Virus record (IMG/VR): IMGVR_UViG_3300018018_000001
Location: 1-64,000 of that record
Origin: a virus
Length of the DNA: 64,000 bases
Direction: 5' to 3' (one strand)
The notes beneath the pieces are model-generated. The model saw only the letters and a list, made by a program, of their open reading frames with translations. It made no database searches and was not told the origin of the DNA. The position numbers and the translations under genes are program-made. Numbering within the stretch: the first letter of the stretch is position 1; each line of letters opens with the position of its first letter. Positions 6,642 to 63,223 of the stretch are shown in pieces.

Positions 6642-8246
6642 ATGAGTAAGGCTAAGAAATTAATCAATTTTGTGGAACAAGATAAAATTAAAGAGGCAGA
6701 GGAAAAAGTCATAGTTATGGTTAATGATAAGAGGGGTAATGAGATGAAGGCCGAAGTAGTTAATCCTCATGACCTATTTAATGATGATATGGGAGGAGAG
6801 CCCTTCTGGAAACATATCTACCTCCTTCAAATGCAAGGTGGTAATTTTGTAATTAATTCTGATAATTCCCAGGAAGCTATTGATGAGTTTATTGACTATT
6901 GTGAGGATAATGCTCCTGGACTTATTTTGTCTGATGAGGAAGAAGAGGAAGCCCAGGAGGATGGTAGCCTTGATGATTATGTCCAGGGCGGTAATTCTGG
7001 TAGATACTTGAATGAACCAATTATGAGGGAACAAATGAGAGAAATCAATTTTGGTGATATTAAGAGGGCATAAATGTCAATCTGTTGCAACGGAGGTATA
7101 GATGGATAAAGCAAATAAGCTTATAGAGGTAGTGGAAAAGTCAATGCCCGATCTTCCAGGTGGAGTAGAGGTAGATGAATACTTAGCAGATTTCCTATCA
7201 GAAGTTCTTGGTATTGATGTTGAAACTATTAAGAAGAGATTATCCAATGCGAATATTTATTCCCTGAAATCCTTTGTTGATGGGGTAAATGGAAAGAAGA
7301 GTTTATAATGGATAGAGCAGAAAAATTTATTAAGGCTATAGGAGAGGGTTCAAAGTTAATGGCCAAGTCAGGTCCCATTACAATTATTGGTGGTAGACCT
7401 GATACCCGTTTTGGTAAACCTCATGAATTGATTATTAAAAGTCTTCATGACGGAGAAGCTGAATGCTCCGCAGGGGATTGGTCTTATAGGTATACTGGAG
7501 AAGTAACCAAGGAAACAATTGAGGCAGAATTTCAAAAGCATTTAGGAAAACTAGGAGAGAGTATAGATAAGGCAAAGAAATTGTTACAGGAATTGGAACA
7601 GATGGATTTATATGAATCATTTTAATTAGGAGAAGCTGCTTAAGGCTGAAGGTTTGTTATAATGAAAGCTAAGGAATTAATTAAATTTTGTGAGGATGAG
7701 GTTATGACCCCGGCCACTATGGAACAGGCCAAGAAAAGATGGGGTTATACCAAATCCGTATTGGCCAATGATGCAAGAGCCTCCTTTAAGGCAGGGACTA
7801 ATTGGATGCTCATGGGTCAATATCCTACAGTGGTTAGTTCTGATAAGAAGTTTATCCTTTATTTTACTGATGATAAACATGGTCATATAGCTGGATTTCA
7901 GGGAATCCCTCCAGGGATTTCCAGGAAACAGGCTGATTGCATTCTCCAGGGTGGGGTGTGCGGAGAGGCTAAAGAGGAGGAGTTTTAAATGAATGCTAAA
8001 GATTTAATTGATTTATGTGAAAAATCTCAAAAGAAAGATGAGCAGAATATCCAATATTGCGGGAATGGTGTTTGTCCCTCTTGCAAGGGTAGAGGGCATA
8101 CAGGTTCAGGGCCTTGCTTGTTATGTAGAGGTTCTGGATTAGTCCAGAGTAAGAAACCTACACTGGTGAATCTTGGTTCCCAGGAAAGGCCGATAACCCC
8201 TTCTAAGGGTAAGAGTAACCTTACCAAAGACCCTTCATTCCTATAA
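6642..8246 (+). CDS. Cluster of five leader-bearing small proteins (6642-7073, 7102-7308, 7308-7625, 7662-7988, 7989-8246)
   Basis: N-termini are MSKAKKLINFVEQ, MDKANKLIEVVEK, MDRAEKFIKAIGE, MKAKELIKFCED and MNAKDLIDLCEK. The 7989 ORF has a DnaJ-like CxxCxGxG motif. Confidence 0.75.
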
Positions 8247-8255
8247 GAGGAAATT

Positions 8256-8915
8256 ATGAATCTTATAGGTAAAACTTTTAACTTTCTTACAGTAATTGGA
8301 AGAAGTGAAAGAAAATCTAGTAGAGATTCTTATTGGTTGTGTAAATGTGTTTGTGGTAAGGAAAAGGAAATTAAAGGTGGAGATTTAAGAAATGGTCATA
8401 GCAAAAGTTGTGGTTGTTATCAAAAAAGTAAAGCAAGTAAAAGAATGAGTAGTGTTAATAACCCAATGAAAAATCATGAAATTTCTATGAAGCAAGGACA
8501 TAATAAGGGAATAAAAACAAAACCACATAATCAAGAAACTATAGAAAGACATAGGCAAGCGTGTTTACGGAATTGGAAGAGTAATGAATATGTAAGGAAA
8601 CAAATGAAAGCTAAAGGAGTTAGTCCAAACAAAACTGAATTGAGATTTGAAAAATTACTTAATGATCTTTATCCTGGAGAATGGAAGTATGTAGGTGATG
8701 GTCAAGTTATTCTTGGGGGTAAATGTCCTGATTTCATTAATATAAATGGACAAAAGAAGATCATAGAGCTTTACGGGGATTATTGGCATAAAGGAGATAA
8801 TCCAGAAGATCGGGCTAAAGTATTTGAACCATTTGGCTATCAGACTTTAGTAGTTTGGGAAAAGGAATTGAGGGATATGAATAAGTTAAAAGAAACTATT
8901 ATGGAGTTTGCCTAA
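8256..8915 (+). CDS. Vsr/DUF559-like PD-(D/E)xK endonuclease with an N-terminal LIGKxFxxLTV..WLCKCxCG module (family B)
   Basis: PNKTELRFE...GKCPDF...IIELYGDYWH...LVVWEKEL. Confidence 0.75.
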   Translation: MNLIGKTFNFLTVIGRSERKSSRDSYWLCKCVCGKEKEIKGGDLRNGHSKSCGCYQKSKASKRMSSVNNPMKNHEISMKQGHNKGIKTKPHNQETIERHRQACLRNWKSNEYVRKQMKAKGVSPNKTELRFEKLLNDLYPGEWKYVGDGQVILGGKCPDFININGQKKIIELYGDYWHKGDNPEDRAKVFEPFGYQTLVVWEKELRDMNKLKETIMEFA

Positions 8916-9784
8916 TGGGAAAAAATAAAGTCAGTCCGGCTTATAAAGTAACACCCTATTTGGAAAAGCTAATGGAAAAAGAACCTTGTGTTGCAAGACA
9001 GTTTGTTCCCTCTCCTGAAGAACAAGAAGAATTGGTTGGTGACTCTCCTGACCCTTTGGGGGAAGATGATCATATTGTCTGTCCTAAATGTATTCATAAG
9101 TATAAAGATAGGGTTTTGATTATAACTTCCAACTTGTGCTTTAGTAATTGTAGATTTTGTACCCGCAGGAGGATGCTCAAGAAAAGAGAGTCCATCATTA
9201 CCGATGGAGAGGTGGATAAGATAGTAGATTATTTGAATGAACACAAAGAGGTAAGGGATGTAATCATATCAGGTGGAGATCCCCTGATATTACCAAATGG
9301 GGTTTTAAAAACTATATTATCCAAGATAAGGAGGGTAGAATCAGTTGAAATTATTCGAGTCGGAACCAGGGCTCCCATTGTGCAGCCTAAAAGAATTACA
9401 GTTAAGTTGGTCAATATTCTTAAGAGGTTTGCTCCACTGTATATTAACATTCATGTTAATCATCCTGCAGAGCTTACGCCCGAAGTCAAAAGGGCCACTG
9501 ATTTAATGGCAGACAATGGGCTCATATTGGGCTCACAGACTGTTTTGCTTAAAGGAGTGAACGATAATGAAGCGGTAATGCTTGAACTTGTGCAGAAATT
9601 ACTCAGGTTCAGGATTAAGCCCTATTACACATATCTTTGTGATCATGTTTTAGGTACTAGACATTTTTGGACTGATGGAGATAAAGCTATTGAAATGCTT
9701 AGAAATATTCAGAAAAGTACAAGTGGATTATGCCTTCCTCACTTCGTAAGGGATACCGAAGAAAGAAAGGTTCCTTTGGCATAA
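8915..9784 (+). CDS. kamA: KamA/EpmB-family radical SAM aminomutase (lysine 2,3-aminomutase-like)
   Basis: HKYKDRVL, CFSNCRFCTRRR (CxxxCxxC), SGGDPL, IRVGTR, HVNHPAE, QTVLLKGVND, PYY and a C-terminal KVP at the PLP-lysine position. Confidence 0.88.
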   Translation: MGKNKVSPAYKVTPYLEKLMEKEPCVARQFVPSPEEQEELVGDSPDPLGEDDHIVCPKCIHKYKDRVLIITSNLCFSNCRFCTRRRMLKKRESIITDGEVDKIVDYLNEHKEVRDVIISGGDPLILPNGVLKTILSKIRRVESVEIIRVGTRAPIVQPKRITVKLVNILKRFAPLYINIHVNHPAELTPEVKRATDLMADNGLILGSQTVLLKGVNDNEAVMLELVQKLLRFRIKPYYTYLCDHVLGTRHFWTDGDKAIEMLRNIQKSTSGLCLPHFVRDTEERKVPLA

Positions 9785-10032: not shown

Positions 10033-11451
10033 ATGAATAGAGCGAAAGAAATCATAGGATTTGTTGAGGAAGAGGAACTTAAGATTCATATCCTTTATCC
10101 CGATGACAGGATGGTTCCCGGGAGTCAGATAATGTCTTGGGCTGAGGATGCATTTGCCAATGGGGAAATAGACCATAAGCCTGAGGATTTGTTTGATGCC
10201 ATTGCCATGCTTAATGATGCTGGGATTATTACAACCACAGAAGGGAATAAATAATTATGAAAGCTATTGAATATATTATGGAACATGGTAAAGTGGCTGT
10301 AGAGGCAAAGCCAAGGTCAAGTATGTGGAATACAAAGACTTGGCATGTTAAAAACCTGGATGGTTCAATGTTTGATACAGTGGCTAAGACTGCTTACGGT
10401 GCTGTCAAGGCTTGGGCTGAGAAAAAGGGAATGACCTTTCCTGATTTTGAGAAAACCAAGTATCGTCAAGAAGGTGAAGATACTGTAATAATTGAGGGGT
10501 AATTATGCCATTACTTTTTATTCAAGGTGGACAAAGTGATCTTTATCGTAGGAAGAGTAGTTCAGTAACTTTAAGTGATGCTCTTTACTTGGCCAAATTA
10601 AACCATGAATATAAGAGAGCTTCAACCCCTGAAGAGAAGAGGGTTATAGCCGATAAAGCCATAAAGATAGCTAGGGAAAAGTATGGTGATGACCTGGAAG
10701 TGGTGGAGGGGAAAATGAATAGAGCAAAAGAATTGGTTAAATTTGTAGAACAAGAACCCGCACCACAACCTCCGCAACCGGCTGCCCAGAATTCTCCTGC
10801 CCCTCAAGCTTATGTTCCTAAGCAAGGGGATAAGGTTAAGTATAATGGCCCCGAAATTCCTGGATGGAAACCTGGATACACTGGAAAGGTAAAGCAAGTT
10901 TATAACGCCAGGACAGGAGGAACCCATGGAGGTAAGCAAGCTGGTGGGGGTGGGACAAAAGTTTCTCAAGCAGCAGTGATTATCATAGATCAAACCAAAC
11001 AAGAACTTACCGCTTGGGCTAAGGATTTACAGAAAGCATAAATGGAGAGTGTATGAAAGCCAAAGAATTAATTAAACTTGTAGAGGAAGATCCAGTATCA
11101 ACCCCTGATTTCAATCAAGCCTTGCATGATTTTATCTTTGATTGCCAAGGTAAGATTGATGCTTACTTTACCAAGAATTATGATCAATCCAATCCCTCCA
11201 GATTAGAGGTTCAAGAGGGGCCTAAGCGTGTCCACATCATTTCTACTGGCCAGGGAATAAAGGGTGATAATCCTACAAGAGATGGTCAAAGATCCTCTTG
11301 GGCCTTGGTAGATAAAGAGACTGGTGACGTATTCAAACCTGCAGGGTGGGGTGTCCCGGCCAAAGGTGCAAGGGCAAATATATTTAAGAAAGAAACATGG
11401 GCTAATGTAGGTCCTTATGGTCCTGCTTATGCTAAAAGGGGTAGGAGATAA
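10033..11451 (+). CDS. Leader-bearing small proteins (10033-10254; 10257-10502 weak leader; 10505/10715-11041; 11053-11451)
   Basis: MNRAKEIIGFVEE, internal MNRAKELVKFVEQ at 10715 with its own GGAGG RBS, MKAKELIKLVEE. The 11053 ORF carries the GDVFKPAGWGVPAKGARANI motif that I recall from phage proteins. Confidence 0.75.
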
Positions 11452-13239: not shown

Positions 13240-13900
13240 ATGGCTAATGTAAAGAAATTGATTACCATGATTGAGCGGTTAGAAAAGGGATTTTCCATAG
13301 AGGAATTGGATATCAATGTTGACGATAAAGAGTTTACTTTTGTGGTTTCCTTTCCCAAACAAGGTGAATTGAATCCTCCCGGTGGCATGAATGTAATGGC
13401 GATTAAGGGCAAGGGGGATCTGGATGCTTATTATGAAAAACCCTACAAGTCATCTATGGAAGGTCCAGGTGGTGGTGGCTATGATATTGGTATAAACTAT
13501 GCCGCAGGGTTCCTATATGTAGATGAGGATGGTAAGGAAACAAGAGTAGATCCAGAAGCATCCAAAATAATAGAGGATATTATCAAGAAGAATTTTGAGG
13601 ATGAATTTCTTGAGAGAATTACTGATAAGTTTGAACAGGATAGAACTGAATATAGAGGAGATTAATATGAAAAAAGCCGAAGAGTTAGCTAAAATGCTTG
13701 AAGCAGATTTAGCACTTTATGACCATCCAGGGAATAAGGAAGCTGAAATGGAAATCCTTAATGCTTTAAAGAAATTGGCCCTGCAGACAGATGTCAAGAT
13801 AAATGCCATACTTAATCAACATAGAAAGCTTGGGGCTTCCGATACCCAGTCAAGAGAGGCAGCTTTTTCCTATTTCAGGGAACTTATAGGATATAGGTAA
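13240..13900 (+). CDS. Two leader-bearing hypothetical proteins (13240-13665, 13667-13900)
   Basis: MANVKKLITMIE and MKKAEELAKMLE. Confidence 0.7.
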
Positions 13901-16132: not shown

Positions 16133-16724
16133 ATGAGTAGAGCAAGAGAGTTAATAAAGTTTATTGAATTAAGAGATCCTGCCATAGATGCCATTAAGGA
16201 TAGGAATATCAGGAATGAGGTTATAAGGAAGCAAGGTAGCCAATATTGTGTTAAGTCCAAAAAAGGAAAGAATATGGGCTGTTACCCAAGTAAGAAACAG
16301 GCCAACAAACGGTTAGGGCAGATACATTATTTCAAAGGAAAGTAGAAAACGTGAATAGATCACAAAGGGTTGCTAGTTTATTAGAGGAAAATGATAAGAA
16401 AACCAATTCTGACTTGACTTGCCCCCTTTGTGGTGAAACTGATTTTGACAAAGTTGTTTTAAAAATTCATATTATAAATGGGTGGTGTGATGAGTTTGAA
16501 AATACTAAAGTTCCAGAAAGGTATAAACAATGAATAAAGCAAAGAAAATGTTGAACTTGTTGGAGCAGGGAACCTATATTATTGATCCTAAAAATCTCAA
16601 AGATCCCGATCAGGAATTAGCTGATTGGATTGATGCAAGGTTAGCTAAGGCCCGACCTCAGGACCAAGATGTATATGATGAACTTGTGGCTTTGAGTAAA
16701 AAACTTAGGGCAAAGGGGAAGTAA
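16133..16724 (+). CDS. Three leader-bearing small proteins (16133-16345, 16351-16533, 16530-16724)
   Basis: MSRARELIKFIE, VNRSQRVASLLEE, MNKAKKMLNLLEQ. The 16133 ORF ends in the basic module GKNMGCYPSKKQANKRLGQIHYFK. Confidence 0.75.
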
Positions 16725-16899
16725 TATGAAAGCAAGAGATTTGATGGATTTTGTTGAGCAGGAAGATATCCATGAGGATGAAATGGATTATGGGCGATTA
16801 GCAGAGATGGTAGAAAACGTGAATAGATCACAAAGGGTTGCTAGTTTATTAGAGGAAAATGATAAGAAAACCAATTCTGACTTGACTTGCCCCCTTTGT
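16342..16899 (+). repeat. Identical 90-bp direct repeat (16342-16431 and 16810-16899)
   Basis: gtagaaaacgtgaatagatcacaaaggg...gacttgccccctttgt is present twice. Confidence 0.95.
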
Positions 16900-17243: not shown

Positions 17244-19263
17244 ATGAGTAAGGCAAAAGAAATAATTAAATTAATTAATGAACAAGAAGATTATATGTCC
17301 ATGGATAATCCAGGACCCGCAATCAAAAAGGAATATAATGTAGGTGAGGATGGAATTATTCATAATCCTGGAAAGTTTGAAGGGGAAATGTATTATGTTC
17401 CTTATTTCTATGATGTTGGCATGAATGGCTTTGCTGATGAGGATAATGGATCTGACTGGTTATTTGAACTTGGGGAAGAGGATTTCAAAAAGTTCCCTGA
17501 ATTGAAAGGCCATAAGAATATCATCATAACCTCAAGTGATCAGGGATTTATAGGTGCTAAGCTTGATGGTGAATTAGCTGAAGAGCCAGAAGGAGAGGAA
17601 TAAAATGAGCAAACCTATATAGATGACGATGTTAAACAAAGGGTTAAGGAATTGCTTGACCAATGGGAAAAAAGTAAACCTCCTTTGTCAGATCCTAAGA
17701 TTCAAGATTGGATTCATCAAGTAATGGGGTATTATAAGGGAATGTATAATCTTGGGGGAGAGTGGAAAACTTCCAATGATTTGTCTAGTAAACCTGATGC
17801 TGATGCTGTATTAAATCAGGATAAACATGCTGGTGTGATTACCATAAAAAAGTTCTATCCTGATTTTAAGCTTACTCAAGATCATGTAGCTAATGCATAT
17901 TGGGGTAGCAAGAAATGAATAAAGCCAAACAACTTATTGAATTAATTGATCCAGACATTAATGTGGATAGGTTTGGATCACGTGTTGATATAACAAGAGT
18001 GGAAACTTTTGTTCCCGCCGAAGCAGATGCTGTAATTCAAAAGCTTAAGGATGGAATTCAGGCCCCTCATAAGAATATCTACAAAAGCACTTTGGGTGGG
18101 ATAGAGCGTACTTCCATTATGATTACTTTGTCCCTGGACCCAAAGGAAGAGTGGAAAAATGGCATCCTGCAGAATTCCAGGTATTGCATGTTCCACTACA
18201 ATGTAGATGGTTCCTTGGAACAATTTTCCCGACAATACAACCTGCCTAAGTTCCGTAAAACAAGAGTCAAGAGTGTTGATGACGCTATTGCCAAAATAAA
18301 TGCTTATATAAATACCGTAGGAGGAAGCCATGAAAGCTAAGAAAGTATTGGATATTCTTAATGAAAATGCCCTTGATGGTATTAATGATGAAATAGGAAA
18401 GGTGTGGGTTGTTACTGCTCCTACTGAGGTATCCGAATTGGGGGATATTTTATTTGAAAGCAGAATTGGAGAAATGATGCTTCAAGCCCGTGGTGGCCTG
18501 GACCCAGATGATGTCCTTATGGTTACAAAGAATAAATCCAAGGCTAATGCTTATGCTCAAAAAGTGGTGGCAAATAGAGCCATTATTCCATCGAGACATA
18601 GGGGGAAATAACAATGGGAAAATCATTTACTGCAGACCAAATTAAGAAAAGAAATTCTATGATTAATAAGAAAAAGAAAGAGCATATCAAAATAGAAATG
18701 GAGGATTTTCATATGAGTAGAGCGAAAGAAATAATTGGTCTTGTGGAAGAAGAGGATGATTACCTGGATGACAAATTCTATTCCAAGGGAACTTATGTTT
18801 ATGTTAAGCCCACTGCCTCAGGTGTGAAAGATAGCTATCCCGCCGCTAACTGGATAAACAATGAAACAAAGGTAAAGCTATTGGATGACGCAGTACAGGG
18901 AACCCTGGATGTTTCCGATGTAGAACTTGAGGATGGAACTGAAGAGTCCATTTATGGGTTTAACATTGTTGGGGAAGCATGAGTAAATCCAATGATTTCA
19001 TTAAATTAATCGGGGAAAGCTATGCAGACATTGCGGGCATGTTCAAGAGTAACAAAAGCCCTGTAGAATTGGCCAGGGGATTATTCTGGAATCTTACCTC
19101 AGGTGGTGGTGCTGAGCAGTCCTATATTGATGACATTCTTACCCCTGGAAAACGGTTGGCAAGAAAGTATGGGATAAAGAATCTGAGACAAGCCTGGAAA
19201 GAGGTTGTTGATGACGGAGAGGTAAGAAAAGAGGGGGATAAATGGATTTGGGTTAACAAATAA
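17244..19263 (+). CDS. Cluster of leader-bearing proteins (17244-17603, 17915-18340, 18330-18611, 18614/18713-18982, 18979-19263) plus frameshifted 17605-17918
   Basis: MSKAKEIIKLINE, MNKAKQLIELID, MKAKKVLDILNE, MSRAKEIIGLVEE, MSKSNDFIKLIGE. Confidence 0.75.
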
Positions 19264-40309: not shown

Positions 40310-40906
40310 ATGGGGAATAAAAGACCAGATGTTGCTGAACGAAATAAATTAAAAAGAAAATTAAAACCGGAACCTAAGTTATGCGAATGTAATTGTGGCC
40401 AGTATTCTAAACCAGGAAATAGATTTATACATAGTCATCATATGAGAGGAAGAAAAAGACTTGATACTGTTGAAAGAAATAGAAAAAATTCAGGAGAAAA
40501 GTCTTCTTGGTTTGGTACAAAAGGTCCAATGTTTGGTAGAACGGGTGAGAAAAGTCCTAATTTTGGTAGAAAAAGACTTGATCTTGCTGAAAGAAATAAA
40601 CAGAATTCAGGGGAGAAATCTCCTAATTGGAAAGGTGGAATTTCCACATATCCTTATGGACCTGGATTTAATGATGAGTTAAAAAAACATATTAGAGAAA
40701 AATTTAATCATACTTGCGTTCTTTGTAAAAAACAAGCTAATATTCCTCATCATATAGACTATGATAAAAACAATAATCAAGAAGATAATTTTGCTCTTTT
40801 GTGTGTATCATGTAATTTTAAAGTAAATAAAAATAGAGTTCAATGGGAAATTTATTTTAGAATGTATTTAATGTTAATGAAATTGGAGGAAAATAATCAT
40901 GGCTAA
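40310..40906 (+). CDS. HNH homing endonuclease, family A
   Basis: CECNCG, GEKSPNFG repeats, KFNHTCVLC...PHHIDYDKNNN...CNFKVNKNRVQWE. Confidence 0.8.
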   Translation: MGNKRPDVAERNKLKRKLKPEPKLCECNCGQYSKPGNRFIHSHHMRGRKRLDTVERNRKNSGEKSSWFGTKGPMFGRTGEKSPNFGRKRLDLAERNKQNSGEKSPNWKGGISTYPYGPGFNDELKKHIREKFNHTCVLCKKQANIPHHIDYDKNNNQEDNFALLCVSCNFKVNKNRVQWEIYFRMYLMLMKLEENNHG

Positions 40907-41276
40907 AGCTAAGGAAGTGTTGAATATTCTTGAACAAGAGGCCCCTGCGGGTCCAGGTGCTGTGGCTGGTGGACAGATTGATGGTCCAAAACCTGCTGGA
41001 TTTACTTCTCAGACCATTACCCAAATACAGGAAATTCTTAGTAAATTCGGAGTTAAGAGTACCCGATCATTCACAGGTTGGCAGTTGGATGGTGGCCTTG
41101 CCGATGCTTCCAGGGGTTTTGTTTCCTTGGGTGTACGTGAGGATGGTTTCTGCGTGATTGCCAAGTCAGGAAAATTCACAAGCCAGGAAGCTGAAGAGAA
41201 TGCCAAGAAATTAGGTGACATAATTACCTGTTTAGGGGAGCTATCTTCTGTTCATGCTTCAGTAGTGGCCAAGTAA
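40899..41276 (+). CDS. Leader-bearing hypothetical protein
   Basis: MAKAKEVLNILEQ. Confidence 0.72.
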   Translation: MAKAKEVLNILEQEAPAGPGAVAGGQIDGPKPAGFTSQTITQIQEILSKFGVKSTRSFTGWQLDGGLADASRGFVSLGVREDGFCVIAKSGKFTSQEAEENAKKLGDIITCLGELSSVHASVVAK

Positions 41277-50445: not shown

Positions 50446-51201
50446 ATGAAATTTTCTAGCAAATTAGACTTAGAATTATTTCTGACAGAGATTGATAGGC
50501 TTGATCTTCTTGGGGAGGTAGATGAAAGCTTTGTCCCTACTCCTGAAATGGAAGAGTCTTTTATTAAGCGCAGGAAACCTCTTTCTGGTGCTTTAAAAGA
50601 TTTCCGAAAGTCCCAGGATACTAAGGGAGAGTGGAGGACAAGTAGACATGGAATTATGAGAGGAATAAATAAATTCCATAAATCCACTGAAGGAAAAAGA
50701 TTCCATCGAAACTTGGGTAGATTCCTTTCTTCTCGATATTTTCATCCCAGGATTAAAGGTCTTGTAAAAGATGACCAGGAGGATAGTAGCAAATCCGCAA
50801 GGGCAGAGGAAAGTTTGAGTAAATTTGATTTAGCTGAAGCTTTGAAGGCCATAACCAGTATTAGGACTCACTGTTTTATTGAATTGGAATATTTCCATCC
50901 ATTACAGGAAGAATTAGATTATGAAGATTTCCTGGAAGAGATTCTCCCTGAGTTAATATCTATTGAGAAAAAGCTTTGGGCGAATGAAAAGCTTAATGGC
51001 TATGACTTAAAGATTTTGCTCCAGTTGGTGGACAAGAAAGAATTGGCAAATGCTATAGCCGGTGATACAGGGTTGGAATCTAAGCGGATAGAAGAAGCTT
51101 GGAATGAGTTTGAAAAGAAAGCCGAAATTGATGAGAACGTCATTAATTTCATTGGGGAGAAATTCTGTGAAAAAGCTACGCAAAAGGTAGGCAAAAGGTA
51201 G
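50446..51201 (+). CDS. Hypothetical head-associated protein (possible prohead core component)
   Basis: Basic helix RKSQ..K..WR..IMRGINKFHKS and location in the head module; family not recognised with certainty. Confidence 0.4.
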   Translation: MKFSSKLDLELFLTEIDRLDLLGEVDESFVPTPEMEESFIKRRKPLSGALKDFRKSQDTKGEWRTSRHGIMRGINKFHKSTEGKRFHRNLGRFLSSRYFHPRIKGLVKDDQEDSSKSARAEESLSKFDLAEALKAITSIRTHCFIELEYFHPLQEELDYEDFLEEILPELISIEKKLWANEKLNGYDLKILLQLVDKKELANAIAGDTGLESKRIEEAWNEFEKKAEIDENVINFIGEKFCEKATQKVGKR

Positions 51202-51203: not shown

Positions 51204-51494
51204 ATGAATAAAGCGCAAAAAATTCTTAAAGAATTTGCAGAAAGTCCCTTTCACGCTAACGTGGGGGAGGATGATTTTGTAAAGGAACTTATTAGAACAT
51301 CATTGGCTTCAGAGCTTGATGCTATTTCTCTTTATGAACAAGTATTAGCCCAAACTGACAATGAAGAAATGATAAAAGTTTTTGAACATGTTTTAAGTGA
51401 AGAAAAAGATCACTTAGAATTGTTTAATAGTTTACTCAAAAAATTTGACAAAGAACAAGCGAATAAAGAAGGTTACTCAGTGGAGGAAACATGA
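51204..51494 (+). CDS. Short ferritin-like (two-helix, EncFtn/rubrerythrin-type) protein with leader
   Basis: Di-iron ligands ELDAISLYE...EEKDH; N-terminus MNKAQKILKEFAE. Confidence 0.78.
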   Translation: MNKAQKILKEFAESPFHANVGEDDFVKELIRTSLASELDAISLYEQVLAQTDNEEMIKVFEHVLSEEKDHLELFNSLLKKFDKEQANKEGYSVEET

Positions 51495-52130
51495 AAAGCA
51501 AAGCATTTAAAGTATTGGAATCCCTTATTCTTACCGAAGGAAAAGATTATCTCTATCTCATAGATCTTGATGAGCGGGGATCTTTCAGAGCACATGTTGA
51601 GGATGCCAAAACAGGAAAAGTAGTCTTTCAGTTTTCTAATGAGGAAGAAGAAGAGGTTTTGGATGATGAAGGTGAACCCACTGGTGAGGTTCATACCTTT
51701 GATGGAGAAATAAGCATGGTTCGAGATGGATATATGAAACATGGTGAGGATATAGTGGGTCTGGAAGAATATCTAATTGACATGAAAATCATACCCGCAG
51801 GATCTCATCTTAAGAAGGGGAATTAATATGAAAAACAAAGCGCAAGTAGTTTTGGATAGTCTCAAAGAGGCTGAAGGTGATTTTACTCCCCAGGAAAAGG
51901 AGCTTATAAATACTGGGTATATTCATATAAGAGATAGTCATATGTTTGGTGATGCTCCTCTTTTTAAGAAAGGAAATGATTACAAATTTGTTTATCAAGG
52001 AAAAGTAATGACCCCTCAAGAAATATATGATGATCTTGTCCAAAATTGGGACCCGCAATCAGAGGAAGAAGTTAGTTGGAAAATGGATAGTATGAAGGGC
52101 TATTTCAAAGCTTTTGGGATAAAGGATTAA
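51491..52130 (+). CDS. Two leader-bearing acidic proteins (51491-51826, 51828-52130)
   Basis: MKSKAFKVLESLILTE and MKNKAQVVLDSLKE. Confidence 0.7.
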
Positions 52131-53794: not shown

Positions 53795-54352
53795 ATGAAT
53801 AAAGCAAGAAAGTTGCTAAGTTTTTTAATTGAAGCTTCTGGTGATACTCAAGGAGATATTCAAGGAGATAATGTAGTCCCTCCTGCTGAAGATATTGCCG
53901 ATCAGTTGTTAACCAATTTAAGTAAAGATTTAAAAGTTACAAAGGGTGAGGTTGAACCTGTTCCTGATGAATTTACTGCTAAATTTATAGCAGTAGATGA
54001 GGATGAGGTTGAAGATAAAACTGATTTGGACTTTACCGATGGTGGGAATCATAGTGCTTATCCTGATTTTGTTCCTAAGGGTGATTACTGGTTTTCCAAG
54101 AATAAATCGGAAGAAGGTAAAGTAGGAATTTGTTGCCATGAATTTGTTGAGGATATGGTCCTTAAACATATTACTGGTCTTGGAAATTATGACTTTGTTC
54201 ATACGGCTGTAGCAGATCCAGTAGAGGCTATTGTTCGATGGATTTATAGAAAAGTCAATCCAGGGAAAGAAGAGGCATTAAAAAAGGCTTCTCCTCAAGT
54301 GGAAAAGTGGGTAGAGTTTTGGTCAAATCTTAATGAGCAATATGAGGATTAA
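53795..54352 (+). CDS. Leader-bearing acidic protein
   Basis: MNKARKLLSFLIE; GGNHSAYPDFVP...CHEFVE...H motif (possible metal site). Confidence 0.7.
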   Translation: MNKARKLLSFLIEASGDTQGDIQGDNVVPPAEDIADQLLTNLSKDLKVTKGEVEPVPDEFTAKFIAVDEDEVEDKTDLDFTDGGNHSAYPDFVPKGDYWFSKNKSEEGKVGICCHEFVEDMVLKHITGLGNYDFVHTAVADPVEAIVRWIYRKVNPGKEEALKKASPQVEKWVEFWSNLNEQYED

Positions 54353-57630: not shown

Positions 57631-57740
57631 AAACACTCTTCTACATATCTTATCGGCAGATTTAGTAAAAAAGTTTAGTTTATTTTAACAATAAAATCAA
57701 TGAGTTCAAAAAATTTCAATTTTTTCATCCAATTTTCCTA

Positions 57741-57816: not shown

Positions 57817-59403
57817 ATGGCAAAAATCGGATTTGATATTTTAACTCTTCAGCCTGTTCAATTTGCGATTGAAGAGTCAGACACTACTATTGATGGAAAA
57901 AATGTCTTAGGAAAACTAAAAGGAACTTTCTTTGTTCCTAATGGCATTTCCCGAAATAAGAGATTCTATGGGTCAGACGTTTGGGAAACTCAACTTAAGA
58001 ATGAGGATGTTCTGACAAGACTAAAAGATAAGAGAATGTTTGGGACTATTGGCCACAATATCAAAGTCAATGATGAGTCTTTGGCCGAAGGTAAACTTTC
58101 TCACATTACCACGGCTTTGTCAATGAATGGCAGTGAGGGTGTTGGTGAGGCCCTTATACTTAACACCGAAGCAGGACGCAATTTGAACACCGTCTTAAGG
58201 GCGGGAAGCAAATTATATGTATCCTCAAGAGCCAATGGAGATTACAAAGGCACTTCCCACGGTGTTCCAAGTGTAGACCCAGAAACTTTTAAGCTTGAAG
58301 GATTTGATTTTGTTATGGAGCCAGGTTTCCTACAAGCTAATCCAGCATTAGTTGAATCTCTTCATATCAAACCTGAAGAGGTTAAGAAATTAGCTGAGGA
58401 TCTTAATGAAACTGTCGATGTTAACTCCCCTGAGGGTGTAATAATAAATGTTGCCCCAGGTGGGATTGTAAATATTGATAGTGGCAAAACAAAAAATTTA
58501 GATGTAAAGACCCCTAAGGATATTAAAATTGAAGAAAGGAACCAGGAGGAAATTATTATGGAGAAAGAACTTGTAGAAAAACTCATGACAGAGAAAGCAG
58601 AGCTTTCTAACACCTTGACTGAAGCTTTGAAAAGCCTAGAGTCTATCAAGGCCGAAAAGGTGGTTTTGGCTTCTGAAGTTAAAACAATTAGTGAAAAACT
58701 GGAAAAGGCCGAAAAGGAAATCAAGGATAAAGGACCTATCCTGGAGACCTATGAAAAATTGGGATCTCCTGCCGATGTGGAAAAGGCTCTGGATCTGGCT
58801 GAAAAAGTGATCTGGAAGTATAAAGAGTCTGGTTCCCCAGATGAAGTCCGTACTGCTCTTGAGAAAGCTTTTACTGAACTTCAGTCTTACAAGCAGATGG
58901 GTACGGTGACTGAGATTGATGAGGCTTTCAATAAGGCTGAATCCTTGATTAAAAAGTATCGTGAGTTAGGAACTCTAGCCGAATTGACTGAAGCCCTTGA
59001 TACCGCCACCACAATTTTCACGAAATTCCAGGAACTGGGATCTCCTGCTGAAATCTCCTTGGCCCTTGACAAGGCTGCAAAGTTAGCTGAAGGGATCAAA
59101 GATGATAGGTTTGGTAAGAGAGTGGAAAAACTGGCTGGTGAATTAGGTGTTCCTGTTGAGGCTATTCGAGAAGTGGCCAAAAAGATGAATGATGGTGAAG
59201 TCCGTAAATTTGTCAAGGCCCTTTCCGAAAGCAATAATCTCAAAGTTAAGTATTTGGCCAAGCCTAAGCCCGGTGCTCTACCTAAGACCAAAGAAGATCT
59301 TAAGAATAAGCCAAGTATTTTCCAGAAATCACGGGGTGAAGCTTTAATGGAGAGTGTTACCCATAACCAGGCAAGGCTTTTCCCGAATAAAGATAAGAAG
59401 TAG
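57817..59403 (+). CDS. Prohead protease (T4 gp21-like) fused to a scaffold domain
   Basis: SRNKRFY, GTIGH, SHITT, GEALILNTEAG, VSSRANG and DFVMEPG match gp21 motifs; about 300-aa helical C-terminus with five 23-aa repeats. Confidence 0.88.
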   Translation: MAKIGFDILTLQPVQFAIEESDTTIDGKNVLGKLKGTFFVPNGISRNKRFYGSDVWETQLKNEDVLTRLKDKRMFGTIGHNIKVNDESLAEGKLSHITTALSMNGSEGVGEALILNTEAGRNLNTVLRAGSKLYVSSRANGDYKGTSHGVPSVDPETFKLEGFDFVMEPGFLQANPALVESLHIKPEEVKKLAEDLNETVDVNSPEGVIINVAPGGIVNIDSGKTKNLDVKTPKDIKIEERNQEEIIMEKELVEKLMTEKAELSNTLTEALKSLESIKAEKVVLASEVKTISEKLEKAEKEIKDKGPILETYEKLGSPADVEKALDLAEKVIWKYKESGSPDEVRTALEKAFTELQSYKQMGTVTEIDEAFNKAESLIKKYRELGTLAELTEALDTATTIFTKFQELGSPAEISLALDKAAKLAEGIKDDRFGKRVEKLAGELGVPVEAIREVAKKMNDGEVRKFVKALSESNNLKVKYLAKPKPGALPKTKEDLKNKPSIFQKSRGEALMESVTHNQARLFPNKDKK

Positions 59404-59536: not shown

Positions 59537-61072
59537 ATGGAGGAGTGTATGAGAAGTAATGTATCTAAAGGTAAAGAAGAGCTTGACGAGCGGTTGCAGT
59601 TAATGGACCACAAAATCAAAGCTGATGCTGAGGCCCTATATGAAAAGTATAGAGAGCAGATGGATCTATTGGATCAGTCTCTTCTGTCCAAAGCTAAGGG
59701 TGGATTAGAGCCCTATGATGTTTACGCTTTGGGAAAGCAGCTTGAATCCTTTGATTCCTATTTGGTCTTATGCGAAGAAGATGGGAACCTTGGCCAGTTA
59801 GGCAAAATCCCCCAGATTGCCTATGATGTTATCACCGTGGCTTATGGAACTTCTATTATCCCCTTTGTGGCTTCTGTTCAGCCAATTGAAGAGGAAAGTG
59901 GACACGTTTACTTTAAGCAGGTGAAACCCGCTCCGTTTACGGATGAGACTTTCAAAGGTGGTTACGATCAGTCTACAGTGTTCATTGATCCCCGTACCGG
60001 CGTTGTAACCCCACGTGCCTATGCCGCTAACACGGTTACTGAGGTTGATACCCTAGTTTCAAGTGGGGGAACTGCCAAGTATTATGCAACCCTAAGACAG
60101 TACCCGGTTCGTCCGTCTACTGTTACCGTGACATTGGCCACCAATGCTGGCGTATATGGCAATGACTTTAACGGATTCGTTCCTACCACTGGTAAAGGTG
60201 TTATCCTTGGTGCTGGCGTGTCTGGCTCCGTGTCTTATGGTGGACCCGCTACCGCTGGCCGTGTGGATCTGATTTTTGCCTCTGATCCTGGTGCCGTTAA
60301 TATCGTTGTTAGCTATCAGGTTAACTATGAGCAGGCTGATGATCTGCCCCGGATTACCACTTACTTCGACAGCACTGATATCTTTGCTCAGGTGTATGCC
60401 CTTAAAGGCACCATCGGGATGTTACAGTCCTATGGTATGAGAAAGAGATTCGGGCTGGTTGCCGAAGATGAGTTGGCTAAAGACTTAGTGGCCGAAATCA
60501 ACGCCGAAATCGGTGGAGACCTGATTACCCTGATGTATGCTGCGGCCCTTGGAACCGTTACGTGGTTTAAAACCCCACCTTCTAATGTTTCTTACTATGA
60601 GCACGTTCAAACCCTGAAGTATGCCATTGCAGATACTGAAGCCAATATGATTGGACATAGCCAGAGAGGCACGATCACTACGATCATTGCCGGTCGAAAC
60701 CTCTGCGCCATTCTGTCTACTCTACCTGGATTCAATAAACTCACCGATGGTAACACCTTAGGTGCTCACGTGTTTGGAACTCTGGATGGTGTCATGATTG
60801 TTAGAGTGAATGAACAGGCTATCCTGGATACCAACAAGGCTATTTGTATTTGGAAGGGAACTTCTCCGTTTGAAGCCCCATCCGTTTACAGTCCGTTTAT
60901 GCCTTTGGTGGTTACCTCTACTCTGCCAGCCGGGAAAAATCCGATTGGTCAGCAGAGAGCCGCTGCAGTTTGGAGCGGAGTGAAAATCCTGGTTCAACAG
61001 TTCATCACCCTCTTGGTCATGGACATTGGGGCGAATACCGCTCCTAACGGATTCGATGTTATCGTTCCGTAA
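59537..61072 (+). CDS. Major capsid protein (T4 gp23-like; probable start ATG 59549)
   Basis: VQPIEEESGHVYF, YALKGT...AEDELAKDLVAEINAEI and VYSPFMPL correspond to gp23 motifs; follows the protease/scaffold gene. Confidence 0.9.
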   Translation: MEECMRSNVSKGKEELDERLQLMDHKIKADAEALYEKYREQMDLLDQSLLSKAKGGLEPYDVYALGKQLESFDSYLVLCEEDGNLGQLGKIPQIAYDVITVAYGTSIIPFVASVQPIEEESGHVYFKQVKPAPFTDETFKGGYDQSTVFIDPRTGVVTPRAYAANTVTEVDTLVSSGGTAKYYATLRQYPVRPSTVTVTLATNAGVYGNDFNGFVPTTGKGVILGAGVSGSVSYGGPATAGRVDLIFASDPGAVNIVVSYQVNYEQADDLPRITTYFDSTDIFAQVYALKGTIGMLQSYGMRKRFGLVAEDELAKDLVAEINAEIGGDLITLMYAAALGTVTWFKTPPSNVSYYEHVQTLKYAIADTEANMIGHSQRGTITTIIAGRNLCAILSTLPGFNKLTDGNTLGAHVFGTLDGVMIVRVNEQAILDTNKAICIWKGTSPFEAPSVYSPFMPLVVTSTLPAGKNPIGQQRAAAVWSGVKILVQQFITLLVMDIGANTAPNGFDVIVP

Positions 61073-61143: not shown

Positions 61144-61170
61144 CATTTGTGGTGGAAGGAGGGGAGACAG

Positions 61171-62173: not shown

Positions 62174-62886
62174 TAGAGGAGATAGTGGGATTTATTGATT
62201 TAACAAAAAAAAGATTTGGAAAATTGGTTGTAATTGCTAGATCAAAATATAGGTCTACACATTGGTTATGTAAATGTGATTGTGGTATAGAAAAGGAAAT
62301 TGATGGTGGTAGTTTAAGAAGAGGACAAAGTAAAAGTTGTAGATGTTCAATAACAGAGAATTTAACTGGGAAGAGATTTGATAAATGGCTTGTTATTAGT
62401 AAAAGTAATAAAAGAGTTTCCGATAGGTCTGTTTATTGGCTATGTAGATGTATTTGTGGAAAAGAAAGAGAAGTTAATAGTAATAGTTTAAGGAGTGGCC
62501 GGAGTAAAAGTTGTGGTTGTTCCCAGAAAATAGCTTCTTTAAAACGCTGGAAAGATTCAAAATTTATTTCTAATCAAATGAAAGCTAGAGGATGTAAACC
62601 AAATAAGACTGAATTAAAGTTTGAGCAATTCCTTAATAGTCTTTATCCAGGTGAATGGAAATATGTAGGGGATGGACAGTTAATCATAAATGGTAGGTGT
62701 CCTGATTTTGTTAATGTGAACGGGAAAAAACAGATTATAGAACTTTATGGTGATTACTGGCATAGAGGCCAACTTCCTGAAGATCGGGCTAAAATATTTG
62801 AGCCTTTTGGTTATCAAACTTTAGTAATTTGGGAAAAAGAACTTAAAAATATGGATAAAGTAGAAGAAAAAATTCTAAATTTTTAA
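62152..62886 (+). CDS. Vsr-like endonuclease, family B
   Basis: Two WLCKCDCG modules and PNKTELKFE...RCPDF...IELYGDYWH; paralog of 8256. Confidence 0.8.
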   Translation: MVFGARLIEEIVGFIDLTKKRFGKLVVIARSKYRSTHWLCKCDCGIEKEIDGGSLRRGQSKSCRCSITENLTGKRFDKWLVISKSNKRVSDRSVYWLCRCICGKEREVNSNSLRSGRSKSCGCSQKIASLKRWKDSKFISNQMKARGCKPNKTELKFEQFLNSLYPGEWKYVGDGQLIINGRCPDFVNVNGKKQIIELYGDYWHRGQLPEDRAKIFEPFGYQTLVIWEKELKNMDKVEEKILNF

Positions 62887-62896
62887 GGAAGAGTTA

Positions 62897-63223
62897 ATGA
62901 ATAAATCCCAAGAAATTATTAAACTAATGGAAGAAGGTAATATTAAAACTTTTATAATGGTCATAGATGCCAAAGATCATGATGATGCTATTCTCAAAAT
63001 TCTTAAGAATGTGGACTCAATAGAAGGTGCAGATATTCTGGCTAAGAAGCATGACTACTTAGCATTTACAGATTTTCATAAAAGACCTGTTGCCGAATTG
63101 TTAGATGTAGTCAAATTGCTCTTGGAGAAAGATCCAAGATTCAAAAATGAAAAGGATTCCCCCGTAGGCATGTTTAAAGTTGAACCTAATAAGTTTATAG
63201 TATTTGGACGGGGTGAAGAATAA
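62897..63223 (+). CDS. Leader-bearing hypothetical protein
   Basis: MNKSQEIIKLMEE. Confidence 0.72.
   Translation: MNKSQEIIKLMEEGNIKTFIMVIDAKDHDDAILKILKNVDSIEGADILAKKHDYLAFTDFHKRPVAELLDVVKLLLEKDPRFKNEKDSPVGMFKVEPNKFIVFGRGEE

What the first reader, a model, noticed from the sequence alone, without database searches (positions are those of the whole stretch)
6642..63223. About 39 unrelated proteins share one N-terminal leader: candidate capsid-targeting / protease-cleaved cargo-loading system
Seen: ORFs starting at 6642, 7102, 7308, 7662, 7989, 10033, 10715, 11053, 12153, 13240, 13667, 14310, 16133, 16351, 16530, 16726, 17244, 17915, 18330, 18713, 18979, 21769, 22839, 24523, 27490, 28218, 28570, 29576, 29824, 39605, 40899, 42028, 45271, 48912, 51204, 51491, 51828, 53795 and 62897 begin with M-x-(K/R)-(A/S)-(K/R/Q/N)-x-(L/I/F/V)-(L/I/M)-x-x-(hydrophobic)-x-E, an amphipathic helix usually ending in Glu. 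Everything after it is unrelated. Codons vary between copies, so the constraint looks like it acts on the protein. Known: T4 internal proteins carry a roughly 10-aa N-terminal capsid-targeting sequence (MKTYQEFIAE type) that the gp21 protease removes by cutting after Glu, and this genome encodes a gp21-like protease. Inference: this is an analogous but different signal that packs a very large, modular set of proteins into the head for ejection into the host. The MCP has a matching candidate site (LCEE|DG).
Basis: partly seen in the sequence, partly recalled or inferred. Interest (0 to 1): 0.92.

Follow-up and report, generated by a model that had tools for sequence, protein, structure and literature searches.

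The report
Shared head-loading tag on phage proteins
About 35 to 39 otherwise unrelated small proteins of this uncultured 182-kb T4-like phage start with the same 12-residue helix, which ends in the cutting motif of the phage's own head protease; it is most likely a "load into the capsid, then trim" tag like phage T4's but on about ten times as many proteins, and this is untested.

Summary
A position matrix of the leader (M-x-K-A-K-x-L-I-x-[LF]-[VLI]-E-[EQ]) gives 34 hits of 16 bits or more in the 181,621-bp genome, against 0.1 in codon shuffles. Of these, 32 sit directly at a start codon, and all lie on the + strand between 6.6 and 63 kb. In leave-one-out scoring, 33 of the 39 listed ORFs beat every other gene's N-terminus. 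The parts after the leader are mutually unrelated, and synonymous codons follow genome usage, so selection acts on the peptide.

The capsid-targeting reading is the best one but remains indirect. The genome encodes a T4 gp21-type (S77) protease fused to a helical-repeat scaffold. The leader ends in hydrophobic-x-Glu(-Glu), as do the conserved major capsid protein propeptide boundary (LCEE-DGN) and the protease N-terminus (AIEE-S). Leader genes occur only in the structural arm. In relatives, including a complete 96-kb phage, they cluster around the portal, protease and capsid genes. A conserved head-module family (187 representatives) keeps the tag.

Tagged proteins include the genome's only sigma factor and an encapsulated-ferritin-like protein. 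Earlier notes of this scan describe similar tags in other uncultured phages; I did not check those notes. I class this as a new variant of a known kind; packaging and cleavage are not shown.

The parts
6642..7073 (+). leader-bearing ORF, 143 aa (MSKAKKLINFVEQ)
   Evidence: leave-one-out 24.2 bits
7102..7308 (+). leader-bearing ORF, 68 aa
   Evidence: 14.5 bits
7308..7625 (+). leader-bearing ORF, 105 aa; also a second, internal leader-like stretch at 7569
   Evidence: 12.6 bits
7662..7988 (+). leader-bearing ORF, 108 aa (short form MKAKELIKFCED)
   Evidence: 22.3 bits
7989..8246 (+). leader-bearing ORF, 85 aa, Cys-rich zinc-finger-like cargo
   Evidence: 15.8 bits
10033..10254 (+). leader-bearing ORF, 73 aa
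   Evidence: 22.7 bits
10715..11041 (+). leader-bearing ORF, 108 aa (start inside longer frame 10505-11041)
   Evidence: 21.5 bits
11053..11451 (+). leader-bearing ORF, 132 aa (best match, MKAKELIKLVEED)
   Evidence: 27.0 bits
12153..12422 (+). weak or offset leader ORF, 89 aa
   Evidence: -1.5 bits in fixed register
13240..13665 (+). weak leader ORF, 141 aa
   Evidence: 6.5 bits
13667..13900 (+). leader-bearing ORF, 77 aa
   Evidence: 11.1 bits
14310..14585 (+). leader-bearing ORF, 91 aa
   Evidence: 14.5 bits
16133..16345 (+). leader-bearing ORF, 70 aa
   Evidence: 18.5 bits
16351..16533 (+). leader-bearing ORF, 60 aa (GTG start); its first 27 codons are duplicated at 16810-16899
   Evidence: (13.7 bits)
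16530..16724 (+). leader-bearing ORF, 64 aa
   Evidence: 18.0 bits
16726..16902 (+). leader-bearing ORF, 58 aa, ending in the duplicated copy of the 16351 leader
   Evidence: (20.7 bits)
17244..17603 (+). leader-bearing ORF, 119 aa
   Evidence: 22.1 bits
17915..18340 (+). leader-bearing ORF, 141 aa (Asp instead of Glu at the end)
   Evidence: (13.0 bits)
18330..18611 (+). leader-bearing ORF, 93 aa
   Evidence: 16.7 bits
18713..18982 (+). leader-bearing ORF, 89 aa
   Evidence: 23.5 bits
18979..19263 (+). leader-bearing ORF, 94 aa
   Evidence: 15.4 bits
21769..21987 (+). leader-bearing ORF, 72 aa
   Evidence: 20.7 bits
22839..23081 (+). leader-bearing ORF, 80 aa
   Evidence: 14.8 bits
24523..24789 (+). 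leader-bearing ORF, 88 aa
   Evidence: 8.8 bits
27490..27873 (+). leader-bearing ORF, 127 aa
   Evidence: 13.5 bits
28218..28529 (+). leader-bearing ORF, 103 aa; the cargo has orthologues with the leader (L029) and fused without it (L007)
   Evidence: 15.0 bits
28570..29313 (+). leader-bearing sigma-28-like sigma factor, 247 aa; the only sigma-70-family gene in the genome
   Evidence: Pfam Sigma70 r2/r3/r4; leave-one-out 16.1 bits
29576..29821 (+). leader-bearing ORF, 81 aa
   Evidence: 16.6 bits
29824..29973 (+). leader-bearing ORF, 49 aa
   Evidence: 16.9 bits
39605..40300 (+). ORF of 231 aa with a weak N-terminal leader and a strong internal copy (RAKEIIKFLSEE, from 39818)
   Evidence: (21.0 bits, internal)
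40899..41276 (+). leader-bearing ORF, 125 aa
   Evidence: 19.9 bits
42028..42747 (+). weak leader ORF, 239 aa
   Evidence: 6.1 bits
45271..45726 (+). leader-bearing ORF, 151 aa, zinc-ribbon cargo
   Evidence: 18.9 bits
48912..50357 (+). leader-bearing 481-aa head-module protein; its N-domain belongs to a conserved family whose members nearly all start with a leader of this type
51204..51494 (+). leader-bearing EncFtn-like / rubrerythrin-like protein, 96 aa
   Evidence: Pfam EncFtn-like 1.1e-6 and Rubrerythrin 1.7e-6 hit one of the 39 tagged proteins (which does not say which); assigned to this ORF from the sequence and an earlier scan note; (12.4 bits)
51491..51826 (+). offset or weak leader ORF, 111 aa
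   Evidence: 2.5 bits in fixed register
51828..52130 (+). offset or weak leader ORF, 100 aa
   Evidence: -8.0 bits in fixed register
53795..54352 (+). leader-bearing ORF, 185 aa, in the head module
   Evidence: 14.5 bits
62897..63223 (+). leader-bearing ORF, 108 aa, downstream of the capsid gene
   Evidence: 21.2 bits
57817..59403 (+). prohead protease (S77, T4 gp21 type) fused to a helical-repeat scaffold, 528 aa; the presumed enzyme that removes the leader. Its conserved N-terminal motif is FAIEE-S
   Evidence: Pfam Peptidase_S77 3e-8; phrog_207 3.8e-24; PDB 5jbl (T4 gp21) 5.3e-5 and helical-repeat proteins
59549..61072 (+). major capsid protein, gp23 family (PF07068 precomputed on its homologues)
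59768..59785 (+). conserved L-C-E-E-D-G motif at the predicted propeptide/mature boundary of the capsid protein

Best explanation
The 12-13-residue N-terminal amphipathic helix (M-x-K/R-A/S-K-x-L/I-I/L-x-L/F-V/L/I-E-E/Q) is a capsid-targeting tag of the T4 type.

Proposed mechanism (inferred): tagged proteins are made together with the head proteins. The hydrophobic face of the helix (positions 4, 7, 8, 10, 11) docks them onto the assembling prohead core, most likely the helical-repeat scaffold that is fused to the protease. The shell closes around them. The S77 (gp21-type) protease then cuts after the terminal Glu and frees the cargo inside the head, from where it can leave with the DNA at infection.

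Shown here: the tag exists, it is under protein-level selection, and it is strictly N-terminal. It ends in the same hydrophobic-x-Glu(-Glu) motif as the capsid propeptide boundary and the protease N-terminus. It is confined to the structural arm, and it is conserved across a large uncultured clade in head-module genes.

Not shown: docking, packaging, cleavage and ejection.
For: 1. Enrichment and position. 34 hits of 16 bits or more against 0.1 expected; 32 of 34 at start codons; all between 6.6 and 63 kb on the + strand. Leave-one-out scoring supports 33 to 37 of the 39.

2. Protein-level constraint on mutually unrelated cargo.

3. Protease. An S77 domain is fused to a scaffold directly upstream of the capsid gene. 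H80, S136 and D164 are invariant in 26 homologues.

4. Cleavage motif. 33 of 39 leaders have Glu in columns 11-13 after hydrophobic residues. The capsid protein has a conserved hydrophobic-C-E-E-D-G-N motif in 24 homologues. The protease N-terminus has a conserved hydrophobic-x-E-E. T4 gp21 cuts after Glu in short motifs such as ITE and LTE, and T4 capsid-targeting sequences are 10-20 residues long (PMC5694885).

5. Genome context. Tagged genes sit among tail-fibre, virion-protein, endolysin, terminase and head genes. None lies in the 93-181 kb arm, which holds DNA polymerase A, ribonucleotide reductase and all the sigma-28 promoters.

6. Relatives. Tags at ORF starts occur in many viral contigs whose capsid protein is 40-57% identical. 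In the complete 95.7-kb relative G001 and in the 100-kb G002, the tagged genes cluster between terminase and neck genes.

7. Orthologues keep the tag at 25-36% cargo identity. In a head-module family with 187 representatives, the leader columns are as conserved as core positions. The tag stays N-terminal even where the domain is moved to the C-terminus of 550-600-aa proteins.

8. Nearest cultured family. In Rhizobium phage RHph_TM30, four small structural-arm proteins start MS[KR][AS]xx[LI][LI]. One of them matches phrog_3503, 'head scaffolding protein' (3.4e-12), and its depositors annotated it 'prohead core protein'.

9. Precedent. T-even internal proteins are a diverse set that share only the capsid-targeting sequence (PMC3012670).
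Against: - No direct evidence of packaging or cleavage exists. No cultured close relative carries the conserved family.
- The number of tagged proteins (35 to 39, about 4,700 residues in all) is roughly ten times that of T4.
- Many cargo parts are strongly acidic, with net charge down to -21, whereas T4's DNA-embedded internal proteins contact DNA through lysines (PMC3012670).
- The consensus is not recognisably homologous to T4's MKTYQEFIAE.
- Two leader-like stretches are internal (39818, 7569).
- A sigma factor is an unusual virion cargo.
- The promoters, and therefore the timing, of the tagged genes could not be established.
Confidence: 0.55

Rival explanations
1. The helix is a docking tag for a hub other than the capsid interior. 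Candidates are an assembly chaperone, the portal or neck, host RNA polymerase, or another phage protein. It gathers many accessory proteins at one site without packaging them.
For: - The tag is an amphipathic, coiled-coil-like helix followed by an acidic or Pro/Gly-rich linker. That is what a generic docking peptide looks like.
- Acidic cargo and a sigma factor fit cytoplasmic action better than life inside packed DNA.
Against: - It does not explain why the tag ends in the protease motif shared with the capsid propeptide and the protease N-terminus.
- It does not explain why tagged genes cluster around the portal, protease and capsid genes in relatives.
- No candidate hub gene was identified.
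Confidence: 0.17
2. The leader is a shared N-terminal degradation or processing signal. Either it is a degron for a host AAA+ protease such as ClpXP, or it is a pro-peptide removed by the phage protease in the cytoplasm. In both cases it gives the tagged proteins a common lifetime or a common activation time.
For: - Position at the N-terminus is strictly required.
- The start (polar, basic, Ala, basic, hydrophobic) loosely resembles N-terminal ClpX recognition motifs such as that of lambda O. This resemblance is from my own knowledge and was not tested.
- The leader ends in a protease-type motif.
Against: - Confinement to the structural arm and the head module is not predicted by this idea.
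- A degron on 35 or more late accessory proteins has no evident purpose.
- The tag co-varies by phage lineage (MSKA..., MKTKAQEML..., MRLVD...). This argues for a phage-encoded partner rather than a conserved host partner.
Confidence: 0.08
3. The leader is the recognition sequence for the radical-SAM enzyme encoded at 8915-9784 inside the tagged-gene cluster. This would work as in RiPP-like systems, where one maturase serves many precursors.
For: - A radical-SAM protein (PF04055, 7.1e-14) lies among the tagged genes.
Against: - No homologue of this enzyme was found in five relatives' records. One of them is the complete 95.7-kb phage G001, which still has about ten tagged genes.
- No SPASM domain was detected.
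- The leader has no Cys, Ser or Thr pattern typical of such substrates.
Confidence: 0.04
4. The conservation acts on the nucleic acid. It could be a translation-initiation enhancer or repressor-binding site spanning the first codons, or a recombination cassette that shuffles gene 5' ends.
For: - There is a mild A-rich codon bias in codons 2-3.
- A perfect 90-nt duplication that includes one leader shows recombination in the cluster.
Against: - Synonymous codons otherwise follow genome usage, and Leu is spelled TTA, TTG or CTT.
- Substitutions are conservative at the amino-acid level.
- The 20 nt upstream share only a ribosome-binding site.
- The peptide is kept in relatives with different DNA.
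Confidence: 0.03

Closest known systems
Capsid targeting sequence (CTS) of phage T4 internal proteins IPI, IPII, IPIII and Alt, removed by the gp21 prohead protease
   Same: - A short N-terminal peptide directly after Met.
- It is shared by otherwise unrelated proteins.
- It ends in hydrophobic-x-Glu.
- The genome has an S77 gp21-type protease and a gp23-type capsid protein.
- Tagged genes are a variable, fast-evolving accessory set (PMC3012670, PMC5694885).
   Different: - The consensus differs (M-x-K-A-K-x-L-I-x-L-V-E-E against MKTYQEFIAE) and is 2-3 residues longer.
- There are about 35-39 tagged genes instead of about 4.
- The protease is fused to the scaffold.
- Cargo is often acidic and includes a sigma factor and a ferritin-like protein.
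- Packaging is untested.
Long N-terminal propeptides of ejection and inner-body proteins in phiKZ-like giant phages (SPN3US gp245 / phiKZ gp175 protease, cleavage after Glu)
   Same: Many head-internal proteins are processed after Glu by a gp21-related protease, and the propeptides are thought to target proteins to the prohead (PMC5694885, PMC10052503).
   Different: Those propeptides are 79-127 residues long and are mostly not shared between proteins. Here one 12-residue tag is reused on dozens of proteins.
Encapsulin cargo-loading peptides (for example on encapsulated ferritins)
   Same: A short peptide addresses diverse cargo to the inside of an HK97-fold shell. One tagged protein here is EncFtn-like.
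   Different: Encapsulin peptides bind the shell protein itself, are usually C-terminal and are not cleaved (my own knowledge). This tag is N-terminal and carries a protease motif. Membership was not tested.
Phage P1 Dar anti-restriction proteins packaged into the head (CTS discussed in PMC9024508)
   Same: Accessory proteins are loaded into the head and injected, with head-protease processing.
   Different: That system has a few proteins, no common short tag shared by dozens, and an unrelated phage lineage. This comparison rests partly on my own knowledge.

Membership tests
T4-type capsid targeting sequence (CTS) | Peptide lies at the extreme N-terminus, directly after the initiator Met | tested here: met
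   32 of 34 strong matrix hits lie 1-2 codons after a start codon. The tag stays N-terminal in domain-shuffled family members.
T4-type capsid targeting sequence (CTS) | Short, 10-20 residues | tested here: met
   Conserved columns span residues 1-13. The T4 range is from PMC5694885.
T4-type capsid targeting sequence (CTS) | Shared by proteins that are otherwise unrelated | tested here: met
   No BLASTP similarity among the cargo parts. Pfam and PHROG hits are all to different families.
T4-type capsid targeting sequence (CTS) | Ends in the prohead-protease cleavage motif (hydrophobic-x-Glu) | tested here: met
   33 of 39 have Glu in columns 11-13, preceded by L/F and V/L/I/C. The same motif is found at the capsid propeptide boundary and the protease N-terminus. 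This is sequence-level evidence only.
T4-type capsid targeting sequence (CTS) | Genome encodes a gp21-type (S77) prohead protease | tested here: met
   PF03420 3e-8, phrog_207 3.8e-24, PDB 5jbl 5.3e-5.
T4-type capsid targeting sequence (CTS) | Sequence similarity to the T4 CTS (MKTYQEFIAE) | tested here: not met
   The consensus is visibly different. The two share only M-K, an amphipathic pattern and a terminal Glu, judged by eye; no alignment statistic was computed. It is therefore an analogue or distant variant, not a sequence-family member.
T4-type capsid targeting sequence (CTS) | Tagged proteins are physically incorporated into proheads and the tag is removed there | not testable with these tools
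   This needs virion mass spectrometry or fusion-protein packaging. No cultured close relative exists.
RiPP-like leader recognised by a radical-SAM maturase | Obligate co-occurrence of the tagged genes with the maturase gene | tested here: not met
   The radical-SAM gene at 8915 has no homologue in five relatives' records, including a complete genome that carries tags.
Encapsulin cargo-loading peptide | Uncleaved peptide that binds the inner face of the shell protein, typically at the C-terminus of the cargo | not tested
   Only the N-terminal position and the protease motif were seen, and both differ from the usual encapsulin case. No binding test with the capsid protein was run.

The most novel reading that the evidence does not exclude
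The phage loads its single sigma-28-type sigma factor (28570-29313, leader-tagged, encoded in the structural arm) into the capsid, together with dozens of other tagged accessory proteins. It injects them with the DNA. The incoming sigma factor then immediately redirects host RNA polymerase to the sigma-28-type promoters, about 25 by a loose pattern scan (12 by the strict pattern), nearly all of which lie in the replication and accessory arm. If so, the injected proteome of a whole uncultured phage clade could be read from sequence by its tag.
Probability: 0.22. Interest if true: 0.85.

Novelty: new variant of a known kind. Interest (0 to 1): 0.66.

Why it matters
If the tag is a head-loading signal, this clade shows that T4's principle of a diverse cargo sharing only a short address can grow to about a fifth of the genes in a 57-kb stretch.

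It would also make injected proteins, which are likely counter-defence and takeover factors, predictable from sequence in uncultured phages.

It would point to a virion-delivered sigma factor and to a ferritin-like cargo that parallels the encapsulins.

A short, portable and self-removing packaging tag with many natural variants would also be useful for loading foreign proteins into phage capsids, as has been done with the T4 CTS (PMC3012670).

Tried and rejected
- **Co-folding.** I co-folded the protease-scaffold (alignment A3) with the leader alignment A4. The result was no verdict (score 0.00), so it is not used either way.
- Sample origin and RNA evidence were therefore not obtained.
- **Capsid protein search in viral contigs.** A single-protein search found nothing. 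An alignment was needed.
- **Word-based search.** A search with residues 1-200 of the 48912 protein against shorter proteins found nothing. The profile search did find relatives.
- **Fold search.** The modelled 48912 N-domain (pLDDT 84) gave no match with E of 0.001 or better in the PDB. The best was a weak Csm1-like hit at E 0.05. Its fold remains unassigned.
- **Promoters.** TATAAATA is not positioned before genes. Sigma-28 promoters are absent from the tagged arm. An ATTATATA-type motif precedes the 6642 and 17244 clusters and also the protease-scaffold gene, but it is too common for statistics. Timing remains open.
- **Possible link to head scaffolding.** The basic C-terminal tail of the 48912 family looked by eye like Rhizobium phage 'prohead core protein' EVB93_332 (phrog_3503). 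The family instead matches phrog_1053, of unknown function, so I claim no link.
- **Earlier findings.** A look-up by sequence gave nothing.

Full report
**What the window is.** The window is the first 64 kb of a complete virus genome of 181,621 bp with direct terminal repeats. Its GC content is about 36% and nearly all genes are on the + strand.

The left arm, about 0-92 kb, is structural.
- Tail-fibre and virion proteins lie at 15124, 19908 and 31082, and an endolysin at 11417.
- A weak large-terminase match lies at 43367.
- An S77 prohead protease fused to a scaffold lies at 57817-59403.
- A gp23-family major capsid protein lies at 59549-61072.
- The tail sheath lies at 68481.

The right arm, about 93-181 kb, holds ribonucleotide reductase, an AAA ATPase, DNA polymerase A and a CCA-adding/poly(A) polymerase-type nucleotidyltransferase. 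All strong sigma-28-type promoters also lie in this arm, apart from one strict-pattern match on the minus strand at 57677 that is not placed before a gene.

The nearest cultured phages are Rhizobium phages of the family Kleczkowskaviridae, at only 44% capsid-protein identity. Hundreds of closer capsid proteins exist in metagenomes.

**Checking the observation.** All 39 coordinates are start codons followed by the described peptide.

I built an 11-column matrix from the K/R-A/S anchor to the Glu-Glu/Gln end and scanned all six frames of the whole genome.
- It gives 34 hits of 16 bits or more, against a mean of 0.1 in codon shuffles.
- It gives 43 hits of 12 bits or more, against 1.6 in shuffles.
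- 32 of the 34 strong hits lie directly at a start codon.
- All 34 are on the + strand between 6 and 64 kb.

In leave-one-out scoring, 33 members exceed 8.5 bits. The best of the 286 other gene N-termini scores 8.1; that gene, at 65897, has an orthologue with a clear leader, so it is probably a 40th member. Six listed members are weak or offset by one residue: 51828, 12153, 51491, 39605, 42028 and 13240.

Without the first 14 residues the proteins show no similarity to each other. Pfam and PHROGs place only a few of them, each in a different family:
- sigma-70 regions 2-4, assigned to the 28570 ORF from its sequence;
- EncFtn-like/rubrerythrin, assigned to the 51204 ORF from its sequence and an earlier scan note;
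- DUF7717.

**The constraint acts on the peptide.** At the conserved columns the synonymous codons follow genome-wide usage, with only a mild A-rich bias in codons 2-3. Leu appears as TTA, TTG and CTT. Replacements are conservative. The 20 nt upstream share nothing but a ribosome-binding site.

**Anatomy of the tag.** The hydrophobic residues fall at positions 4, 7, 8, 10 and 11 of the long form. That gives one face of a helix with coiled-coil-like spacing. An AlphaFold model of the 48912 N-domain, built on 77 homologues (pLDDT 84), shows residues 3-17 as a helix separated by a loop from the globular domain.

33 of 39 leaders have Glu in columns 11-13, preceded by L/F and V/L/I/C. The following 15 residues are enriched in acidic residues and in Pro/Gly, which looks like a linker.

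**Link to the head protease.** The 57817 product has an N-terminal S77 domain that matches the solved T4 gp21 structure 5jbl. His80, Ser136 and Asp164 are invariant in 26 homologues. That these three are the catalytic triad is my inference from memory of T4 gp21.

The C-terminal 300 residues are helical repeats of an LGSP-E-type unit.

In an alignment of 24 capsid proteins, an approximately 77-residue N-terminal segment ends at a conserved hydrophobic-C-E-E-D-G-N motif. In this phage it reads YLVLCEEDGNL, at 59759-59791. The protease itself begins with a conserved hydrophobic-x-E-E motif, here FAIEE-S.

These motifs match the leader ends (LVEE, FVEQ, FCED, LCEK). They also match the published rule that T4-type proteases cut after Glu in short motifs such as ITE and LTE (PMC5694885).

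**Comparative evidence.** 34 viral contigs encode capsid proteins 31-57% identical to this one. Many of them carry the tag at ORF starts, in lineage-specific variants:
- MSKAQELI… and MNRAQEVIKMCEQ (L007, L008);
- MKTKAQEMLDFLNE together with MSKA-EILEKI-E (L027);
- M-KA-QII-L-NE (L030);
- MRLVD–K-LLE-L in more distant relatives (L013, L016).

I read two relatives whole. In both, the tagged genes concentrate between the terminase and neck genes, with only a few elsewhere.
- G001 is complete, at 95.7 kb.
- G002 is held as 100 kb and is estimated 89% complete.

Only three of the 41 tagged proteins of this genome (the 39 listed plus 65897 and 78432) have orthologues in these loci, which shows how fast the cargo set turns over. 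Those orthologues keep the tag at 25-36% cargo identity. In one case the same cargo domain is fused behind a different N-terminus that lacks the tag.

The N-domain of the 48912 protein defines a head-module family with 187 representatives at E of 0.001 or better. Most members begin with M-S-[KR]-A-x-[EK]-[LIV]-L-E-x-[LIF]-[ESD]. The leader columns carry 2.0-2.3 bits, as much as many core positions of the domain. The tag stays at the N-terminus even in 550-600-residue proteins where the domain sits at the C-terminus.

No cultured phage has this family.

In the cultured Rhizobium phage RHph_TM30, four small structural-arm proteins start MS[KR][AS]xx[LI][LI]. One of them matches phrog_3503, 'head scaffolding protein', and was annotated 'prohead core protein' by its depositors.

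**Interpretation.** The best-supported reading is a T4-type 'load, then trim' capsid-targeting tag, at about 0.55. T4's internal proteins are likewise a diverse set that share only the CTS (PMC3012670).

One copy each of all 39 proteins amounts to about 4,700 residues. T4 packs about 1,000 internal-protein molecules (PMC3012670, PMC5694885), so capacity is not a barrier. This last step is an inference.

The main weaknesses are these:
- There is no direct evidence of packaging or cleavage.
- Many cargo parts are acidic.
- Timing of expression is unknown.

**Rivals.**
- *A docking tag for another hub.* This cannot be excluded, but it does not explain the shared protease motif or the head-module clustering.
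- *A degron or cytoplasmic pro-peptide.* This is possible but not suggested by the gene context.
- *A radical-SAM recognition leader.* An earlier scan note prompted this idea, and a radical-SAM gene lies at 8915. It is weakened because five relatives' records, one of them a complete tagged genome, lack that enzyme.
- *A nucleotide-level signal.* This is contradicted.

**Notable cargo.** The genome's only sigma-70-family gene is tagged and lies in the structural arm. The sigma-28-type promoters placed before genes all lie in the other arm. A virion-delivered sigma factor would fit this layout, but that is speculation.

The tagged EncFtn-like protein parallels encapsulin cargo.

**Novelty.** This is a new variant of a known kind. 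Earlier notes of this scan describe comparable tags in other uncultured phages. I did not test those notes. Searches of the paper library found no published description of this expanded tag system.

Noticed in passing
window 16342-16431 and 16810-16899: A perfect 90-nt direct repeat, 468 nt apart. It duplicates the ribosome-binding site, leader and first 27 codons of gene 16351 onto the end of gene 16726. It is either a recent partial duplication in the tagged-gene cluster or an assembly artefact.
   Followed up: partly
window 28570-29313: The only sigma-70-family gene of the complete genome. It is sigma-28-like, carries the leader and lies in the structural arm, while nearly all sigma-28-type promoters lie at 96-181 kb.
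   Followed up: partly
window 51204-51494: A 96-aa EncFtn-like / rubrerythrin-like protein with the N-terminal leader and no obvious C-terminal encapsulin targeting peptide.
   Followed up: partly
window 8915-9784: A radical-SAM protein (PF04055, 7.1e-14; no SPASM domain seen) embedded among the tagged genes. It is absent from five relatives' records.
   Followed up: yes
window 39818 (inside ORF 39605-40300) and 7569 (inside ORF 7308-7625); genome 78444: Strong leader-like stretches that are not at a start codon (RAKEIIKFLSEE; KAKKLLQELEQ; KSKKLIKLMKNEQ after MEES). They may be second docking or cleavage sites, or relics of gene fusion.
   Followed up: no
window 57817-59403: The protease is fused to a scaffold built of about five LGSP-E-type helical repeats. 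A profile of it matches designed helical-repeat proteins in the PDB. The same architecture occurs in Rhizobium phage RHph_TM30 (34% identity).
   Followed up: partly
window 8256, 26796 (PHROG-supported); 12589, 22172, 30528, 38123, 45743, 54355, 57007, 62185, 63213 (by eye): An unusually dense scatter of homing-endonuclease-like genes (HNH and GIY-YIG types) between structural and tagged genes. Only 8256 and 26796 were confirmed by PHROGs; the others were judged from their N-terminal motifs.
   Followed up: partly
genome 87105, 129383, 133880 (+); reverse complement at window 22028 and genome 116529: A repeated motif, CTTTGGTGTTATTATATAG, in intergenic DNA. A shorter ATTATATA core also precedes the tagged-gene clusters at 6642 and 17244 and the protease-scaffold gene at 57817. 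It is a possible promoter class, but no statistics support this.
   Followed up: partly
window 50446-51201 and homologues (L001 6277, L007 4154, L027 6473, L035 4705): A conserved head-module protein of about 240 aa, lying between the portal and protease genes, with a conserved N-terminus MKF–D—LFL-E–R-DLL. It is present even in the cultured Rhizobium phages. Its function is unknown; it may be a prohead core component.
   Followed up: no
L047 29611-30660 (-) and L035 9317-9634 (Rhizobium phage RHph_TM30): Four small proteins of a cultured Kleczkowskaviridae phage start MS[KR][AS]xx[LI][LI]. One matches phrog_3503, 'head scaffolding protein'. This makes the phage a possible experimental entry point for testing the tag.
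   Followed up: partly
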